From the IMG/VR virus record IMGVR_UViG_2909298281_000003: a DNA stretch of 44,769 nt, one strand, 5' to 3'. The notes under the pieces were generated by a model. That model ran no database searches, was not told the DNA's origin, and saw only the letters and a program-made list of their open reading frames with translations. The position numbers and the translations under genes were made by a program. Shown in pieces: positions 1-14,627 of this stretch. Positions within the stretch are counted from its first letter, which is position 1; each line of letters starts with the position of its first letter. Origin of the DNA: a virus (lineage: Duplodnaviria; Heunggongvirae; Uroviricota; Caudoviricetes).

Positions 1-3349
<3,349 letters not shown>

Positions 3350-7786: not shown

Positions 7787-7849
7787 CTAAGTAATCTTAG
7801 TTTTTATTGACCAAAGATAGATTTGTAATTAGCATCTAACAAAACTTAG
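7787..7849. promoter_or_regulatory. OR-like operator/promoter region (PRM/PR) between cI and cro
   Basis: Perfect palindrome CTAAGtaatCTTAG at 7787-7800 and CTAACaaaaCTTAG at 7836-7849; TTGACC -35-like at 7807-7812; GGAGGG ribosome-binding site before cro. Confidence 0.5.
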
Positions 7850-8062: not shown

Positions 8063-8651
8063 ATCGATTAACAGAAACCACAGAACGATGAGGCTAACCG
8101 TGGGTAAGCATCACTGGAAAGTAGAAAAACAGCCTGAGTGGTACGTGAAAGCTGTCAGAAAAACTATCGCAAAGTTGCCGGGTGGTTACGCTGAAGCAGC
8201 TGACTGGCTGGATGTAACAGAGAACGCATTATTTAACCGCCTTCGTGCCGATGGCGATCAGATTTTCCCGCTGGGATGGGCAATGATTTTGCAACGTGCT
8301 GGTGGAACTCACTTCATTGCTGACGCAGTGGCGCAGTCTGCAAATGGCGTCTTTGTGTCTCTTCCTGACGTCGAGGATGTGGACAACGCCGATATTAACC
8401 AGCGCCTGCTGGAAGTCATTGAACAGATCGGCAGTTATTCAAAACAGATTCGTTCAGCAATTGAAGACGGTGTAGTGGAACCGCATGAGAAGACAGCAAT
8501 TAACGACGAGCTGTACCTCTCAATTTCGAAGCTGCAGGAGCATGCAGCACTGGTCTATAAAATTTTTTGCATTTCAGAAAGTAATGACGCCCGCGAGTGT
8601 GCAGCTCCGGGCGCCGTGGCGTGTCGTGACTGTGGAGAAACTAACGCATGA
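8043..8651 (+). CDS. CII-like regulatory protein (CP76-type, about 202 aa)
   Basis: Start ATG 8043 overlaps the cro stop; position downstream of cro; family assignment from memory. Confidence 0.45.
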
Positions 8652-8986
8652 ACAGTTTAACAACACACTACCGTCGCTCGCAACTGATTGCGCTTCCTGT
8701 ACCGGGTGGAAAAGCGAAGGTGGAGTATTGCTATGCAGTAAATGTACCAGGTGACAGGGAAATTGTAACCCACAGCTTTGCAGAGTGGGCTGTGGGTGAT
8801 TTCAACCGGCAGAAGGAGACAGTCCTTTGCGACAAGTTAACCGCTGGTTCAAAGATCACTACGGAGTGCCCGTCAGAGTCATTCGTTGGGAGCCGGAAAC
8901 ACAACGTGTTATCTACCTCCGCGAAGGCTATGAGCATGAGTGCTTCAGCCCGCTCGAACAGTTTCGTCGTAAATTCAGGGAAATAG
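8648..8986 (+). CDS. Hypothetical protein; probable frameshift, with the C-terminal half continuing in another frame to 9006
   Basis: N-terminal 57 aa look protein-like, then the frame becomes Ser-rich junk while the adjacent frame 8800-9006 reads [44 protein letters not shown]. Confidence 0.4.
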
Positions 8987-8995
8987 AGGTCGGTC

Positions 8996-9922
8996 ATGAG
9001 CACTAAATTAACCGGCTATGTATGGGATGGTTGCGCTGCATCAGGCATGAAATTATCCAGCGTGGCAATTATGGCCCGCCTGGCTGATTTCAGTAATGAC
9101 GAAGGTGTGTGCTGGCCATCAATTGAAACCATTGCCCGCCAGATTGGCGCGGGGATGAGTACCGTCAGAACGGCTATCGCACGGCTGGAAGCAGAAGGCT
9201 GGTTAACGCGTAGGGCGCGTCGCCAGGGTAACCGCAATGCGTCGAATGTTTATCAGCTTAACGTTGCGAAGCTTCAGGCAGCGGCATTTTCTCAACTGTC
9301 AGATTCTGACCCGTCAAAATCTGACCCGTCAAAATTTGATGCGTCGAAATCTGGCAAAAAAGCGGGTTTTCACCCGTCAGAATCTGGTGGGGATCCGTCA
9401 GTAAAATCAAAACATGATCCGTCAGATAAAAAAACTTCTCGTCCGGACGCTTCGCAACCGGACACGCAGACGGCTGAACAGGATTTTTTAACTCGCCATC
9501 CTGATGCGGTTGTATTCAGCCCTAAAAAGCGCCAGTGGGGGACGCAGGATGATTTGACCTGCGCACAGTGGCTCTGGAAAAAAATCATCGCCCTGTACGA
9601 GCATGCCGCCGAATGTGACGGCGAGGTGGTTCGTCCCAAAGAACCGAACTGGACAGCCTGGGCAAACGAAATTCGCCTGATGTGTGTGCAGGATGGTCGT
9701 ACTCATAAACAAATCTGCGAGATGTACAGCCGCGTCAGTCGCGATCCGTTCTGGTGCCGTAACGTGCTCAGCCCGTCGAAGCTGCGGGAAAAATGGGATG
9801 AGCTTTCCCTGCGCTTATCGCCGTCCGTCAGCACGTACACCGAAAAACGCGAAGACCCGTACTTCAAAGCCAGTTACGACAACGTGGACTACAGCCAGAT
9901 CCCGGCAGGATTCAGGGGGTGA
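8996..9922 (+). CDS. Replication initiator, O-like (HTH N-domain, iteron-containing linker)
   Basis: 308-aa ORF; N-terminal winged-helix region; internal iteron array encoding the DPSKSDPSKFDASKS repeats. Confidence 0.75.
   Translation: MSTKLTGYVWDGCAASGMKLSSVAIMARLADFSNDEGVCWPSIETIARQIGAGMSTVRTAIARLEAEGWLTRRARRQGNRNASNVYQLNVAKLQAAAFSQLSDSDPSKSDPSKFDASKSGKKAGFHPSESGGDPSVKSKHDPSDKKTSRPDASQPDTQTAEQDFLTRHPDAVVFSPKKRQWGTQDDLTCAQWLWKKIIALYEHAAECDGEVVRPKEPNWTAWANEIRLMCVQDGRTHKQICEMYSRVSRDPFWCRNVLSPSKLREKWDELSLRLSPSVSTYTEKREDPYFKASYDNVDYSQIPAGFRG
9305..9430. repeat. Iteron array (putative replication origin) inside the O-like gene
   Basis: Six direct copies of core CCGTCA(A/G)(A/T)AAT: ctgacccgtcaaaat x2, gcgtcgaaatctg, cacccgtcagaatctg, gatccgtcagtaaaatc, gatccgtcagataaa. 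Confidence 0.65.
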
Positions 9923-9924
9923 TC

Positions 9925-10413
9925 ATGAGTCTTTTGAATGACGTTCAGAAATTCATTGAAGCCCATCCGGGGTGTACTTCCGGAGACATTGCGGATGCTT
10001 TTGCAGGTTACTCACGACAGCGCGTTCTGCAGTCAGCAAGCAAGTTACGTCAGAGTGGGCGTGTGGCTCACCGTTGTGAAGGGGATACACGCAGACATTT
10101 CCCGCGGCTGACTGAGATACCGCAGGAGCCGGAACCGCAACCAGTTCGTGAATCCAGACCTGTGCGCAATTTCTATGTCGGCACTAACGATCCCCGGGTG
10201 ATTTTGTGCCTGACCCGCCAGGCGGAAGAACTGGAGTCCAGGGGCTTATACCGTCGTGCTGCAACGGTGTGGATGGCGGCATTCCGTGAAAGCCACTCCC
10301 AGCAAGAGCGAAACAATTTTCTTGCGCGTCGTGAGCGGTGTTTACGGAAAAGCAGCAAGCGCGCTGTATCGGGTGAAGAGTGGTATCTGTCAGGGAATTA
10401 CGTGGGGGCTTAA
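9925..10413 (+). CDS. Hypothetical protein, possibly a PerC-like regulator
   Basis: 162-aa ORF, ATG at 9925 just after the O-like stop; C-terminal LYRRAATVW motif. Confidence 0.4.
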   Translation: MSLLNDVQKFIEAHPGCTSGDIADAFAGYSRQRVLQSASKLRQSGRVAHRCEGDTRRHFPRLTEIPQEPEPQPVRESRPVRNFYVGTNDPRVILCLTRQAEELESRGLYRRAATVWMAAFRESHSQQERNNFLARRERCLRKSSKRAVSGEEWYLSGNYVGA

Positions 10414-10739
10414 TGACGACGTTAACTCAATGCCAGCAGCAGGTGCTGGATATGCTGATTTCTTACCAGAAAGAACGTGGCTTCCCGCCAACCAATCAGG
10501 AGGTGGCTACCATGCTGGGATACCGTTCAGTGAATGCAGCGGTGGAGCATCTTCGCGCACTGGAGAAAAAAGGCGTCATCACGATAAAGCGTGGCGTGGC
10601 CCGGGGCATCACGCTTCATACCGCGGTGAAGGACGACGACAGCGAGGTGGCCGGGATTATCCGCGCACTGCTTGCTGGTGAGGAAAACGCCAGGCTGCGT
10701 GCAGCCCACTGGTTACATGAGAGGGGGCTGAAAGTATGA
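10413..10739 (+). CDS. LexA-N-terminal-like DNA-binding protein without peptidase domain
   Basis: Start overlaps previous stop (TAATG); winged-helix motif QEVATMLGYRSVNAAVEHLRALEKKGVI. Confidence 0.5.
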   Translation: MTTLTQCQQQVLDMLISYQKERGFPPTNQEVATMLGYRSVNAAVEHLRALEKKGVITIKRGVARGITLHTAVKDDDSEVAGIIRALLAGEENARLRAAHWLHERGLKV

Positions 10740-12939: not shown

Positions 12940-12956
12940 TTTTGTGGAGAAAGTTA

Positions 12957-13340
12957 ATGCGTGATATTCAGATGGTTCTTGAACGTTGGGGAGCGTGGGC
13001 GGCTAATAATCATGAAGATGTGACCTGGTCGTCCATTGCCGCCGGTTTTAAGGGATTAATTCCTTCAAAAGTAAAATCTCGCCCGCAATGTTGTGACGAT
13101 GACGCGATGATCATTTGCGGGTGCATGGCCCGTCTGAAAAAGAACAACAGCGATTTGCACGATTTATTAGTAGATTATTATGTAGTCGGTATGACATTCA
13201 TGTCACTGGCAGGTAAGCATTGCTGCTCTGATGGTTATATCGGGAAAAGGTTACAGAAGGCTGAGGGCATAATTGAAGGGATGTTAATGGCATTAGATAT
13301 CCGGTTAGAGATGGATATCGTTGTTAATAACTCTAATTAA
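12957..13340 (+). CDS. Q: Late-gene antitermination protein Q
   Basis: Position immediately before the lysis region; GGAGAAAG ribosome-binding site before ATG 12957; family assignment from memory. Confidence 0.6.
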
Positions 13341-13529: not shown

Positions 13530-14627
13530 TTAGAACTGGTAAACCAGACCTACAGCAACGATGTCATCAGTGCTTACACCGAGTGCTTTAGTGAAGTCAT
13601 TTTTGTCAAGCAGGTTGATTTTGTAATCAACGAAAGTAGACATATTTTTGTTGAAGTAATAGGTTGCACCTACATCAACATATTTGACTAAGTCCTGATC
13701 GCCCCATACTCCAAGATCCTTACCTTTAGATTGCAGGTAAGCAACGGACGGACGCAGACCGAAATCGAACTGATATTGTGCAACAGCTTCGAAGTTTTGA
13801 GCTTTATTAGCAACGAAGTGATCAGCAAATACAGTCATATTCTGGGTTTCAGAATAGGTAGTGGCCAGGTAAATGTTGTTAGCGTCATATTTCAGACCTG
13901 CGGCCCAAACTTCTGCATTTTTACCGGAAGCAAATACTTCAGGAAGAACTTTCCCTGCATTAACTTGAGTGTCGGTACGATCAGATTTCGCATAAGTTGC
14001 ACCGATACCGAATCCTTCGTATTCATAGGTAGCAGAGAAACCGAAGCCATCACCGTTACCTTCGGTGTAGTTATCGAAATCGCTACGATCGTTTTTGCCT
14101 TGGTACTGAGCAGCAAAGTTCAGACCATCAACCAGACCAAAGAAGTCGTTGTTACGATAGGTTGCAACACCAGTGGTGCGACCAGTCATGAACACATCTG
14201 TTTGGGTCCAGGTATCGCCACCGAATTCTGGCAGAACGTCAGTCCACGCACCGATGTCGTATGCTACACCGTAGTTACGGCCGTAATCGATTGAGCCGTA
14301 GTCACCGAATTTCAGGCCTGCAAATGCAAGACGGGTTTTGTCTTTGGAGGAACCTTGAGATTCAGCGCGGTTGCCTTTGAATTCATATTCCCACTGACCG
14401 AAACCAGTCAGCTGATCGTTGATTTGGGTTTCGCCTTTGAAGCCCAGACGAACATAAGTAGTATCACCATCATCTGCATCGTTAGAGGAAAAGTAGTGCT
14501 TGGCATTAACTTTCCCGTACAGATCCAGCTTGTTACTGTCTTTATTATAAATTTCAGCTGCCTGAGCAGACATCGCCATCAGTACTGATGCAGCTACAGC
14601 AGAAATTGCCACTGTTAATTTTTTCAT
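13530..14627 (-). CDS. nmpC: Phage-encoded OmpC-family porin (NmpC/Lc-like)
   Basis: 365-aa ORF with signal peptide and C-terminal aromatic residue (…YQF). Confidence 0.9.

What the first reader, a model, noticed from the sequence alone, without database searches (positions are those of the whole stretch)
9305..9430. Replication origin iterons embedded in the O-like initiator gene
Six direct repeats with core CCGTCA(A/G)(A/T)AAT sit inside the coding sequence and encode the repetitive DPSKSDPSKFDASKS linker, the same design as ori-lambda inside gene O. There is no P-like helicase loader downstream; instead a 162-aa protein and a LexA-N-domain protein follow, so the replication module may recruit host factors differently.
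Basis: partly seen in the sequence, partly recalled or inferred. Interest (0 to 1): 0.4.

Follow-up and report, generated by a model that had tools for sequence, protein, structure and literature searches.

The report
Phage replication origin inside initiator gene
The repeats are very probably the replication origin of a lambda-like prophage, built into its own initiator gene as in phage lambda; this design is ordinary, but the initiator ends in a short peptide copied from the host protein DnaT, and that ending is found only where the usual phage helicase-loader gene is missing.

Summary
The repeats are real and sit inside a 308-aa O-like initiator gene (8996-9922, +) of an SfIV/SfII-type prophage.

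The conserved unit is not CCGTCA. It is an 11-bp palindromic box, TCARAWTCTGR. Four boxes stand 15 bp apart (9299-9354) and a fifth lies at 9377-9387. Next comes a DNA block conserved even at silent codon positions. The most AT-rich, least stable 40-mer of the gene (9398-9439) starts 11 bp after box 5. This is the geometry of ori-lambda.

All 51 related loci from other Enterobacterales keep 4-10 boxes at the same place. There the serine codon is TCA in 81% of cases, against 9% in the N-domain of the same genes. Initiators with other N-terminal domains carry other repeats at that position.

The protein has a winged-helix N-domain, a disordered linker encoded by the origin, a true lambda-O C-terminal domain (E = 2e-26), and a tail ...SQIPAGFRG that matches the C-terminus of E. 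coli DnaT in 8 of 9 residues.

No P, DnaC or helicase gene accompanies any of 48 tail-bearing initiators. All five relatives with a different ending that were checked are followed by a lambda-P gene.

Origin function is inferred, not shown. The design is known; the DnaT-tail link is the interesting lead.

The parts
8996..9922 (+). O-like replication initiator gene (308 aa). It has an N-terminal winged helix, a disordered linker, a lambda-O-type C-domain and a DnaT-type tail.
   Evidence: ORF. PF13730 HTH_36 at aa 23-70. phrog_391 'replication initiation O-like', 3e-134. 96-98% DNA identity to the initiator genes of phages PhiR29_1, SfIV and SfII.
8996..9289 (+). Codes for the N-terminal winged-helix DNA-binding domain (aa 1-98), the presumed iteron reader.
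   Evidence: AlphaFold2 model shows helices plus a beta-hairpin wing; block-mean pLDDT 62-87. Foldseek matches only MarR/ArsR-type winged helices. HTH_36/GntR/MarR Pfam hits.
9299..9354 (.). Four tandem palindromic iteron boxes with a 15-bp period: 9299 TCAGATTCTGA, 9314 TCAAAATCTGA, 9329 TCAAAATTTGA, 9344 TCGAAATCTGG.
   Evidence: The same boxes occur at the same offset in 51 loci. Position matrix.
9377..9387 (.). Fifth box, TCAGAATCTGG, set apart by 33 bp. It is the best conserved box in the family.
   Evidence: In 51 loci one box always stands 33-63 bp after the last tandem box, except in L055 and L060. It lies in the conserved block.
9367..9412 (.). DNA block conserved across genera, including at third codon positions: TTTSACCCGTCAGAATCTGGNGGGGATCCGTCAGTAAAWTCAAAAC.
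   Evidence: Information content per column in 52 sequences. The commonest synonymous codon has frequency 0.90 here against 0.52 in the N-domain.
9392..9430 (.). Two GATCCGTCAG repeats (9392-9405 and 9416-9430). They are half-sites without the TCTGA arm and lie inside the AT-rich segment.
   Evidence: the repeat finder family D7. The first is near-invariant in relatives.
9398..9439 (.). A-rich, AT-rich segment, the candidate DNA-unwinding element. It starts 11 bp downstream of box 5.
   Evidence: Most AT-rich 40-mer of the gene (72.5% AT, 50% A on the top strand). Least stable 40-mer in 8600-10400. Top 1.8% of all 40-mers in the window. In lambda the equivalent 40-mer (80% AT, 62% A) starts 3 bp after iteron 4.
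9491..9811 (+). Codes for the lambda-O-type C-terminal domain (aa 166-272).
   Evidence: BLASTP against lambda O: E = 2e-26, with the conserved part at lambda aa 162-270. Helical; block-mean pLDDT 74-93. No Pfam model hits it.
9848..9919 (+). Codes for the C-terminal tail REDPYFKASYDNVDYSQIPAGFRG. It ends in the DnaT-type peptide and is predicted disordered.
   Evidence: 8 of 9 residues identical to the extreme C-terminus of E. coli DnaT, [9 protein letters not shown]. pLDDT <50 for aa 279-289 and 304-308. The same tail occurs on initiators with other N- and C-domains. A mosaic junction lies at about 9847.
9925..10739 (+). Context, not part of the origin: a PerC-family protein (9925-10413) and a LexA_DNA_bind protein (10413-10739). 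They occupy the place where lambda has gene P.
   Evidence: PF06069 at 9e-10 and PF01726 at 4e-19. The gene directly after the initiator is not conserved among tail-bearing relatives.
7807..7835 (+). pR-like promoter candidate upstream of cro. Rightward transcription from it would run through the origin, as in lambda.
   Evidence: Consensus scan only, 9 of 12 matches. Gene order is cI(-), cro, cII-like, then the initiator.

Best explanation
This is the vegetative replication origin of an SfIV/SfII-type lambdoid prophage. It is embedded in the gene of its own initiator, with the same design as ori-lambda in gene O.

Inferred mechanism. The initiator's N-terminal winged-helix domain binds, probably as dimers, to five 11-bp palindromic boxes TCARAWTCTGR (9299-9387). 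The resulting nucleoprotein complex destabilises the adjacent A-rich, AT-rich segment (9398-9439). The origin lies exactly in the stretch that codes for the disordered linker (aa 102-155), so the peptide there is largely a passenger of the DNA signal.

Unlike lambda, the module encodes no helicase loader. The lambda-O-type C-domain is followed by a disordered tail that ends in the conserved C-terminal peptide of the host primosomal protein DnaT (IPxGFRG). I infer that this peptide docks the initiator onto the host helicase-loading machinery, either DnaB-DnaC directly or through a primosome component, and so makes a phage P protein unnecessary.

What is shown: the anatomy, its conservation, the DNA-level constraint, the covariation with the N-domain, the domain homologies, and the association between tail and loader gene.

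What is inferred: binding, unwinding, origin activity and the partner of the tail.

Sub-confidences: it is the origin, about 0.8; the tail is what replaces P, about 0.4.
For: Anatomy. Five boxes lie within 89 bp, with a 15-bp tandem array. The AT-rich, least-stable 40-mer starts 11 bp after the last box. In lambda the iterons lie 348-432 nt into O and the AT-rich 40-mer starts 3 bp after iteron 4; here the boxes lie 303-391 nt into the gene.

Conservation. Loci were retrieved with the N-domain alone, which avoids selecting on the repeats. All 51 loci from other Enterobacterales have 4-10 boxes at the same offset.

DNA-level rather than peptide-level constraint.
- The serine codon in the repeats is TCA in 222 of 274 cases (81%), against 44 of 497 (9%) in the N-domain of the same genes.
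- The lysine codon is AAA in 91% of cases against 55%.
- The commonest synonymous codon has frequency 0.90 in the block around box 5, against 0.52 in the N-domain.
- Relatives encode quite different peptides (RPETE, SERSAS, DPSNI) over similar palindromes.

Covariation.
- mEp460_4F5 has the same C-domain but a different N-domain, and carries a different 23-bp repeat family. SfV carries yet another.
- Distant HTH_36 initiators carry their own 4-7 repeats 180-430 nt after the start.
- In L094 a changed recognition helix goes with boxes changed symmetrically to TCAAM-N-KTTGA.
- Mosaic junctions fall right after the origin block, at about 9426.

Protein. The N-domain is a winged helix, aa 102-155 are disordered and the C-domain is helical. 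The C-domain is homologous to lambda O at 2e-26.

Loader.
- 0 of 48 initiators with the DnaT-type tail have a lambda-P, DnaC or DnaB homologue within about 2-3 kb downstream, against 6 of 18 without the tail.
- All five non-DnaT-tail relatives that were checked are followed directly by PF06992 Phage_lambda_P: L044, L091, L093, L097 and L098.
- The complete SfIV genome has no loader or helicase even at E = 0.1.

Tail.
- 8 of 9 residues match the DnaT C-terminus.
- The longer match is KRERDINAISRPDTSIPPGFRG against DnaT [20 protein letters not shown].
- The tail of DnaT is as conserved as its folded domain, 0.89 against 0.88.
- In about 560 kb of fetched DNA only initiators and DnaT carry it.
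Against: There is no experimental evidence for binding, unwinding or origin activity in this family. I found no paper on it in the searchable library.

The AT-rich segment is only moderately AT-rich: 72.5% against 80% in lambda.

A 15-bp spacing of 11-bp palindromes is tighter than in lambda and puts neighbouring sites on different faces of the helix, so the real binding register is uncertain.

Repeat homogenisation by slippage or gene conversion could inflate codon uniformity within a locus. It does not explain uniformity across genera.

For the tail:
- The partner is unknown.
- A 2026 structural study proposes the DnaT N-terminal domain, not the tail, as the DnaB/DnaC recruiter (PMC13377028).
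- Removing DnaT residues 154-179 only halves ssDNA affinity in vitro (PMC4132743).
- Twelve YeP1-type initiators lack both the tail and a loader gene, so the tail is not the only loader-free solution.
- The loci are phylogenetically related, and five of the non-tail loci were picked because of their endings. The Fisher p = 2e-4 is therefore only indicative.
Confidence: 0.75

Rival explanations
1. The repeats are only a low-complexity protein linker, a product of replication slippage in a Ser/Asp/Lys-rich spacer, with no function as DNA.
For: The region encodes a segment predicted to be disordered (aa 102-155, pLDDT <50). Copy number varies among near-identical relatives, from 3 to 5 units, as expected for slippage.
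Against: Synonymous codons are fixed: TCA 81% against 9%, AAA 91% against 55%, and commonest-codon frequency 0.90 against 0.52. The peptide changes while the palindrome stays. The unit is a palindrome, which a peptide constraint does not predict. Unrelated N-domains carry unrelated repeats at the same place. An AT-rich segment always follows.
Confidence: 0.07
2. The boxes are binding sites of the initiator, or of another regulator, used for control such as autoregulation, copy-number handcuffing or incompatibility. The actual start site of replication lies elsewhere.
For: Iterons of plasmids serve both initiation and control (established knowledge of R6K, RK2 and P1). No direct mapping of the origin exists here.
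Against: The boxes lie mid-gene, about 1.5 kb downstream of the only promoter-like site for this operon, which is a poor position for autoregulation. The boxes, the AT-rich segment and the position after the N-domain reproduce ori-lambda. No other comparable repeat cluster of this box exists in the window.
Confidence: 0.08
3. The origin reading is right, but helicase loading depends on an unrecognised phage-encoded factor, for example the PerC-like 162-aa protein or another early gene. The DnaT-like tail would then have another role, such as ssDNA contact or turnover.
For: The function of the tail is unknown. In vitro it contributes modestly to ssDNA binding in DnaT. The 2026 preprimosome study favours the DnaT N-domain for DnaB/DnaC recruitment. 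YeP1-type initiators manage without the tail or a loader.
Against: The gene after the initiator is not conserved among tail-bearing loci: it can be a methyltransferase, a PAPS-reductase-like protein, a PerC-like protein, a DUF968 protein or something else. Tail type predicts presence or absence of P on the same N-domain and C-domain background. The tail is attached to at least three unrelated C-domains.
Confidence: 0.2

Closest known systems
ori-lambda within gene O of phage lambda (O-some, with P-mediated DnaB loading)
   Same: [quoted passage not shown] An A-rich, AT-rich segment follows immediately downstream. The gene sits in the pR operon after cro and cII. The C-terminal domain is homologous, E = 2e-26.
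   Different: The N-domain is HTH_36 (PF13730), not Phage_rep_O (PF04492). The boxes are 11 bp at 15-bp spacing, against 18 bp at 20-24-bp spacing in lambda. There is no P gene. The lambda-type end ...TDWIYG is replaced by a DnaT-type end ...IPAGFRG.
Origins inside gene 18 of P22 and phage L, and the six-iteron origins of Stx phages
   Same: Each initiator type has its own repeat family inside its coding region, and copy number varies between relatives (PMC8022706; PMC7466680 listed).
   Different: P22 and L pair the initiator with their own DnaB-type helicase (gp12). Stx phages keep O together with P. Here neither is present.
E. coli DnaT (primosomal protein I), which is the source of the 'primosomal protein' annotation on these phage genes
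   Same: The extreme C-terminal peptide is shared...(K)RD(I/V)N..S.PD..IPxGFRG. It is highly conserved in DnaT.
   Different: There is no DnaT N-terminal domain and no DnaT ssDNA-binding domain: PF17948 hits DnaT but not this protein. The phage protein is a sequence-specific dsDNA origin binder, not a restart factor.
Relatives with the same N-domain and boxes that do keep a loader: Pantoea and Rahnella prophages (L091, L093, L097, L098), Lonsdalea (L044) and phage phiP27 (L17-L18-L19)
   Same: The same winged-helix N-domain and, where the DNA was read (L044 and phiP27), the same box family. Four of them (L091, L093, L097, L098; all hits of the homology search) also have the same lambda-O-type C-domain.
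   Different: They end in ...TDWIYGIEE...HWNSPEGW..L or another ending. They are followed by Phage_lambda_P, or in phiP27 by DnaC-like and DnaB-like genes.
Iteron-type plasmid replicons (pSC101, R6K, RK2, P1)
   Same: Direct repeats bound by a winged-helix initiator lie next to an AT-rich region.
   Different: In plasmids the iterons are intergenic, the Rep proteins have two winged-helix domains (Rep_3 and similar), and DnaA boxes are usual. Here the origin is intragenic, there is a single winged helix, and there is no DnaA box near the origin.

Membership tests
lambda-type intragenic origin (ori embedded in the initiator gene) | [quoted passage not shown] | tested here: met
   Five boxes at +303 to +391 nt of the gene, against +348 to +432 in lambda. 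Present in all 51 relatives.
lambda-type intragenic origin (ori embedded in the initiator gene) | Each iteron has internal dyad symmetry | tested here: met
   TCAGA-N-TCTGA. Found as inverted repeats I1 and I10 and on both strands.
lambda-type intragenic origin (ori embedded in the initiator gene) | An AT-rich, strand-asymmetric segment directly downstream of the iterons | tested here: met
   9398-9439: 72.5% AT, 50% A, least stable 40-mer in the region, 11 bp after box 5. It is weaker than in lambda (80% AT).
lambda-type intragenic origin (ori embedded in the initiator gene) | Iteron sequence changes together with the initiator's N-terminal domain in mosaic relatives | tested here: met
   mEp460_4F5, SfV and distant HTH_36 initiators each carry their own repeats. 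L094 shows a changed recognition helix with symmetrically changed boxes.
lambda-type intragenic origin (ori embedded in the initiator gene) | The initiator binds the iterons and the region supports replication when the initiator is supplied | not testable with these tools
   This needs EMSA or footprinting and a plasmid origin assay.
lambda O/P replication module | A P-type helicase loader gene directly downstream of the initiator | tested here: not met
   tblastn with lambda P, two other P proteins, two DnaC proteins and a DnaB-like helicase finds nothing in the module or in the whole SfIV genome. The downstream genes are PerC-like and LexA_DNA_bind.
lambda O protein family | N-terminal Phage_rep_O domain (PF04492) | tested here: not met
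   The Pfam scan gives HTH_36, not PF04492. Lambda O itself scores 5.7e-36 on PF04492.
lambda O protein family | C-terminal domain homologous to lambda O aa 162-270 | tested here: met
   BLASTP E = 2e-26, 30% identity over 210 aligned positions, with conserved WG..DLT.A.W, PN..WAN.IRLM..DGR.H and NVLSP.KLR.KW.
DnaT / primosomal protein I (the database label on close relatives) | DnaT ssDNA-binding domain (PF17948) and N-terminal oligomerisation domain | tested here: not met
   PF17948 is absent from this protein even at E up to 1, but is found in E. coli DnaT at 3.7e-21. Only the last 9-20 residues are shared.
Iteron plasmid Rep family | A Rep_3/RepA-type double winged-helix initiator with intergenic iterons and DnaA boxes | tested here: not met
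   No such Pfam hit. The repeats are intragenic. The only two DnaA-box matches in the window are more than 20 kb away.
Loader-less ('initiator-solo') phage replication module. The term is recalled from Weigel and Seitz 2006, which is not held in the library. | An origin-binding initiator with no phage-encoded helicase, loader, primase or polymerase | tested here: met
   None of the 54 annotated SfIV genes is named helicase, loader, primase or polymerase; tblastn for loader and helicase homologues is also negative. The window has only IstB of an IS.

The most novel reading that the evidence does not exclude
The conserved C-terminal peptide of DnaT (...PD.xIPxGFRG) may be a portable docking motif for the host helicase-loading machinery. 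Phage initiators appear to have captured it repeatedly. It occurs on at least three unrelated C-domains and in both DnaT flavours, ...GFRG and ...GFRGAK. Capturing it would dispense with their own P, DnaC or helicase genes.

If this is right, the phage data point to the still-unknown element by which DnaT hands DnaB-DnaC to the restart primosome. They also provide a simple genetic system, a one-gene replicon, in which to test it.
Probability: 0.35. Interest if true: 0.7.

Novelty: new member of a known kind. Interest (0 to 1): 0.4.

Why it matters
As an origin this is a textbook design. Its value is practical. It gives the correct box and the extent of the origin for a very common family of enterobacterial prophage initiators: 2353 database proteins at E <= 1e-5, mostly labelled only 'helix-turn-helix domain-containing protein' or, misleadingly, 'primosomal protein'.

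The less ordinary part is the natural experiment around it. On the same N-domain and box family, and for four of the relatives the same C-domain, the last 10-20 residues predict whether a lambda-P gene follows. The loader-free ending is the conserved tail of host DnaT. How DnaT recruits DnaB/DnaC is stated to be unknown in 2026 (PMC13377028). The phage tail gives a specific peptide to test.

Tried and rejected
- A CGTCR search was too short to be informative.
- The DnaC-like tblastn hit in the window (993-1292, minus strand) raised the possibility of a nearby loader. It is IstB of an IS21-family element inserted in the integrase gene, so it was rejected.
- No DnaA box lies near the origin.
- Pfam, NCBIfam and a PDB sequence search gave nothing for the C-domain. 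The Foldseek search of the AlphaFold model matched only the N-terminal winged helix. Homology of the C-domain came from a direct comparison with lambda O.
- Membership in the DnaT family was rejected, because only the terminal peptide is shared.
- phi80 gene 15 was considered because one homologue is named 'Replication protein 15'. phi80 does not appear among the phages listed for this N-domain; 50 of the 69 matching records were shown.
- Literature searches on the PGFRG motif, on iterons of SfII/SfV, and on 'initiator-solo' modules found nothing specific. The Weigel and Seitz 2006 review is not held.
- The small hairpin at 9363-9376 found by the terminator scan is not conserved as a hairpin in relatives and was not pursued.
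Full report
**What is in the window.** Positions 9305-9430 lie inside a 308-codon ORF, 8996-9922 on the plus strand. Upstream are a cI-type repressor on the minus strand, a Cro, a CII/CP76-type protein and two small ORFs. Downstream are a PerC-family protein, a LexA_DNA_bind protein, RusA, a KilA-N protein, a DUF968 protein and the antiterminator Q. This is the early-right operon of a lambdoid prophage. The region is 96-98% identical to phages PhiR29_1, SfIV and SfII, where the gene is annotated as 'replication protein O' or 'primosomal protein'. The protein has an HTH_36 domain at aa 23-70 and matches phrog_391, 'replication initiation O-like', over its full length.

**The observation.** The repeats are real. 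TRF reports a 15-bp period array at 9305-9353. The repeat finder reports 4-5 copies in register between 9289 and 9386, plus two GATCCGTCAG copies at 9392 and 9416.

Comparison with relatives shows that the conserved unit is an 11-bp palindromic box, TCARAWTCTGR (TCAGA-N-TCTGA). In the window it occurs at 9299, 9314, 9329, 9344 and 9377. Only four other sites with at most one mismatch exist in 44.8 kb.

**Is it more than a repetitive peptide?** I retrieved loci with the N-terminal domain alone (aa 1-92), so the repeats played no part in the selection. All 51 usable loci from other Enterobacterales genera carry 4-10 boxes at the same offset. The usual pattern is a tandem block followed by one separate box.

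Several measures show that the constraint acts on the DNA:
- Within these genes, the serine of the repeat, defined at the protein level, is coded by TCA in 222 of 274 cases. In the N-domain of the same genes the figure is 44 of 497.
- Lysine is coded by AAA in 91% of cases in the repeats, against 55% in the N-domain.
- Around the fifth box a 46-bp block is almost invariant, including third codon positions, while a GGN codon inside it varies freely.
- For conserved residues with four or more codons, the commonest codon has frequency 0.90 in this block and 0.52 in the N-domain.
- More diverged relatives encode quite different peptides (RPETE, SERSAS, DPSNI) over similar palindromes.

Copy number differs among near-identical relatives, from three to five tandem units, and reaches nine in a Providencia locus.

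**Covariation with the DNA-binding domain.**
- Phage mEp460_4F5 has the same C-terminal half but an unrelated N-domain. At the same place it carries a different repeat family with a 23-bp period. SfV has a third N-domain and a third repeat family.
- Distant HTH_36 initiators, with 34-49% identity in the N-domain, each have their own 4-7 repeats 180-430 nt after the start.
- In L094 the recognition helix differs (RTAIARLE becomes KSAIAELA), and the boxes change symmetrically in both arms to TCAAM-N-KTTGA. phiP27 keeps the helix and keeps the boxes.
- The mosaic junction with mEp460_4F5 falls at about 9426, right after the conserved origin block.

**The adjacent unwinding element.** The most AT-rich 40-mer of the gene is 72.5% AT with 50% A on the top strand. 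It is also the least stable 40-mer between 8600 and 10400. It lies at 9398-9439, starting 11 bp after the last box, and is in the top 1.8% of all 40-mers in the window. In lambda the annotated iterons lie 348-432 nt into gene O, and the most AT-rich 40-mer (80% AT, 62% A) starts 3 bp after iteron 4. Here the boxes lie 303-391 nt into the gene. No DnaA box is nearby. A pR-like promoter candidate upstream of cro would send transcription through the origin (this is a consensus match only).

**The protein.** An AlphaFold2 model built from 28 homologues shows four parts:
- a winged-helix N-domain, aa 1-98;
- a segment with pLDDT <50 at aa 102-155;
- a helical C-domain, aa 157-274, with block-mean pLDDT of 74-93;
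- a mostly low-confidence tail.

Residues 102-155 correspond to nt 9299-9460. The boxes and the AT-rich segment therefore occupy exactly the part that codes for the disordered linker. Foldseek matches only MarR/ArsR-type winged helices.

The C-domain has no Pfam model, but it is a clear homologue of the lambda O C-terminal domain (BLASTP 2e-26). 'O-like' is therefore right for the C-domain. The N-domain is a different family from lambda's Phage_rep_O.

**No loader, and a DnaT-type ending.** The last nine residues, SQIPAGFRG, match the extreme C-terminus of E. coli DnaT, [9 protein letters not shown], in 8 of 9 positions. In another mosaic variant the match extends to about 20 residues: KRERDINAISRPDTSIPPGFRG against [20 protein letters not shown]. 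This stretch lies outside the Pfam DnaT DNA-binding domain, which covers residues 89-154. The protein is therefore not a DnaT homologue, despite the 'primosomal protein' label.

Among 104 enterobacterial DnaT sequences the tail is as conserved as the folded domain, 0.89 against 0.88. The tail occurs on initiators with at least three unrelated C-domains: lambda-O type, Phg_2220_C type and SfV type. Both DnaT flavours...GFRG and ...PDKxIPxGFRGAK, are found on phage initiators. In all the fetched DNA only initiators and DnaT carry it.

The tail tracks the absence of a loader gene:
- tblastn with lambda P, two further P proteins, two DnaC proteins and a DnaB-type helicase finds no loader within about 2-3 kb downstream of any of 48 tail-bearing initiators. 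It finds one after 6 of 18 initiators without the tail.
- Four relatives have the same N-domain and the same lambda-O-type C-domain but end in ...TDWIYGIEE (as lambda O does) or ...HWNSPEAW..L. I predicted that they would have a P gene. All four are followed directly by PF06992 Phage_lambda_P. So is L044.
- phiP27, which has yet another ending, is followed by DnaC-like and helicase genes.
- The complete 39.8-kb genome of SfIV has no gene annotated as a helicase, loader, primase or polymerase, and no tblastn hit to a loader or helicase at E = 0.1.
- The only DnaC-like ORF in the window is IstB of an IS21-family element that splits the integrase gene.

There are caveats. The loci are related to one another, and five of the non-tail loci were chosen because of their endings. 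Twelve YeP1-type initiators have neither the tail nor a loader.

**Most likely mechanism.** The N-terminal winged helix binds the five palindromic boxes. The complex opens the adjacent A-rich segment. The host helicase is then brought in without a phage loader. The tail is the best candidate for that last step, because it is the only feature that distinguishes loader-free initiators from P-dependent ones on the same N-domain and C-domain background.

The tail's partner is unknown. The 2026 preprimosome structures state that the way DnaT recruits DnaB/DnaC remains unknown, and they favour the DnaT N-domain (PMC13377028). Removing DnaT residues 154-179 only halves ssDNA affinity (PMC4132743). 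I found nothing on this motif in the searchable literature.

**Comparison with what is known, and novelty.** Iterons inside the initiator gene, specific to each initiator type, are established for lambda and P22 and are inferred in the same way for phage L (PMC8022706). Stx phages vary the number of iterons (PMC7466680). This locus is a new, well-supported member of that kind. Its particulars are a different N-domain family, 11-bp boxes at 15-bp spacing, and no P gene. The family is very common: 2353 homologues at E <= 1e-5.

The association between a DnaT-type ending and the absence of a loader gene is the part I could not find described. It is a lead, not a result.

**Verdict.** Origin function and the role of the tail still need experiments.

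Noticed in passing
window 828-2629 (minus strand), with flanks 1-789 and 2656-3123: An IS21-family insertion sequence (istA 1607-2629, rve; istB 828-1610, IstB_IS21) splits the prophage integrase gene into a C-terminal piece (1-789, Phage_integrase) and an N-terminal piece (2656-3123). The prophage is therefore probably defective for excision. IstB is the only DnaC-like ORF in the window.
   Followed up: yes
window 8648-9006: Two ORFs with significant family matches overlap by 160 nt in different frames. ORF 8648-8986 matches phrog_1170 over its full length, and ORF 8827-9006 is DUF4222 (PF13973, 8.6e-19). A 63-aa PHROG (phrog_20047) matches only the first 63 residues of the longer ORF. The C-terminal half of the longer ORF may be an annotation by-product or a real dual-coding stretch.
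   Followed up: no
window ~9426 and ~9847: Mosaic breakpoints flank functional modules. mEp460_4F5 becomes homologous from about 9426, the end of the origin block. SfV, mEp460 and Stx2 phages become homologous from about 9847, the start of the tail-coding segment, and remain so through the downstream genes. The N-domain with its origin, the C-domain, and the tail are thus exchanged separately.
   Followed up: partly
window 9299-9354; L010; P0005; L056 (3813-3933): The copy number of the 15-bp unit is polymorphic among 95-99% identical genes: 3 units in P0005 (303 aa), 4 in the window, and 5 in SfIV, SfII and L010 (313 aa). It reaches 9 tandem units in a Providencia prophage.
   Followed up: partly
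L008 (YeP1), L026, L029, L030, L045, L050, L051, L056-L060: A third class of initiators has the same N-domain and boxes, is 335-374 aa long, and ends in W..IW.E..Q... These have neither a DnaT-type tail nor any recognisable loader gene downstream. Methyltransferase, PerC-like or DUF968 genes follow instead. How they recruit a helicase is unexplained.
   Followed up: partly
P0141, P0186, P0191, P0239 (DnaT); L038, L040 (phage initiators): DnaT tails come in two flavours, ...IPPGFRG and ...PDKxIPxGFRGAK. Both also occur on prophage initiators, for example GPDKAIPAGFRGAK in two Enterobacter prophages. This suggests repeated capture from host dnaT, or tracking of it. I did not check whether the flavour matches the DnaT of the same host.
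   Followed up: no
L014, L042, L043, L079; hit H61: Typical enterobacterial or Pseudomonas prophage loci appear in records titled Vagococcus, Martelella, Chryseobacterium, Gordonia and Elizabethkingia phage EKP1. These are probably contaminated or misassigned assemblies.
   Followed up: no
window 13530-14627 (minus strand): A complete Gram-negative porin gene (Porin_1, 1.8e-156) lies just beyond the Q antiterminator gene (12942-13340) on the opposite strand. It may be prophage cargo of the nmpC type.
   Followed up: no
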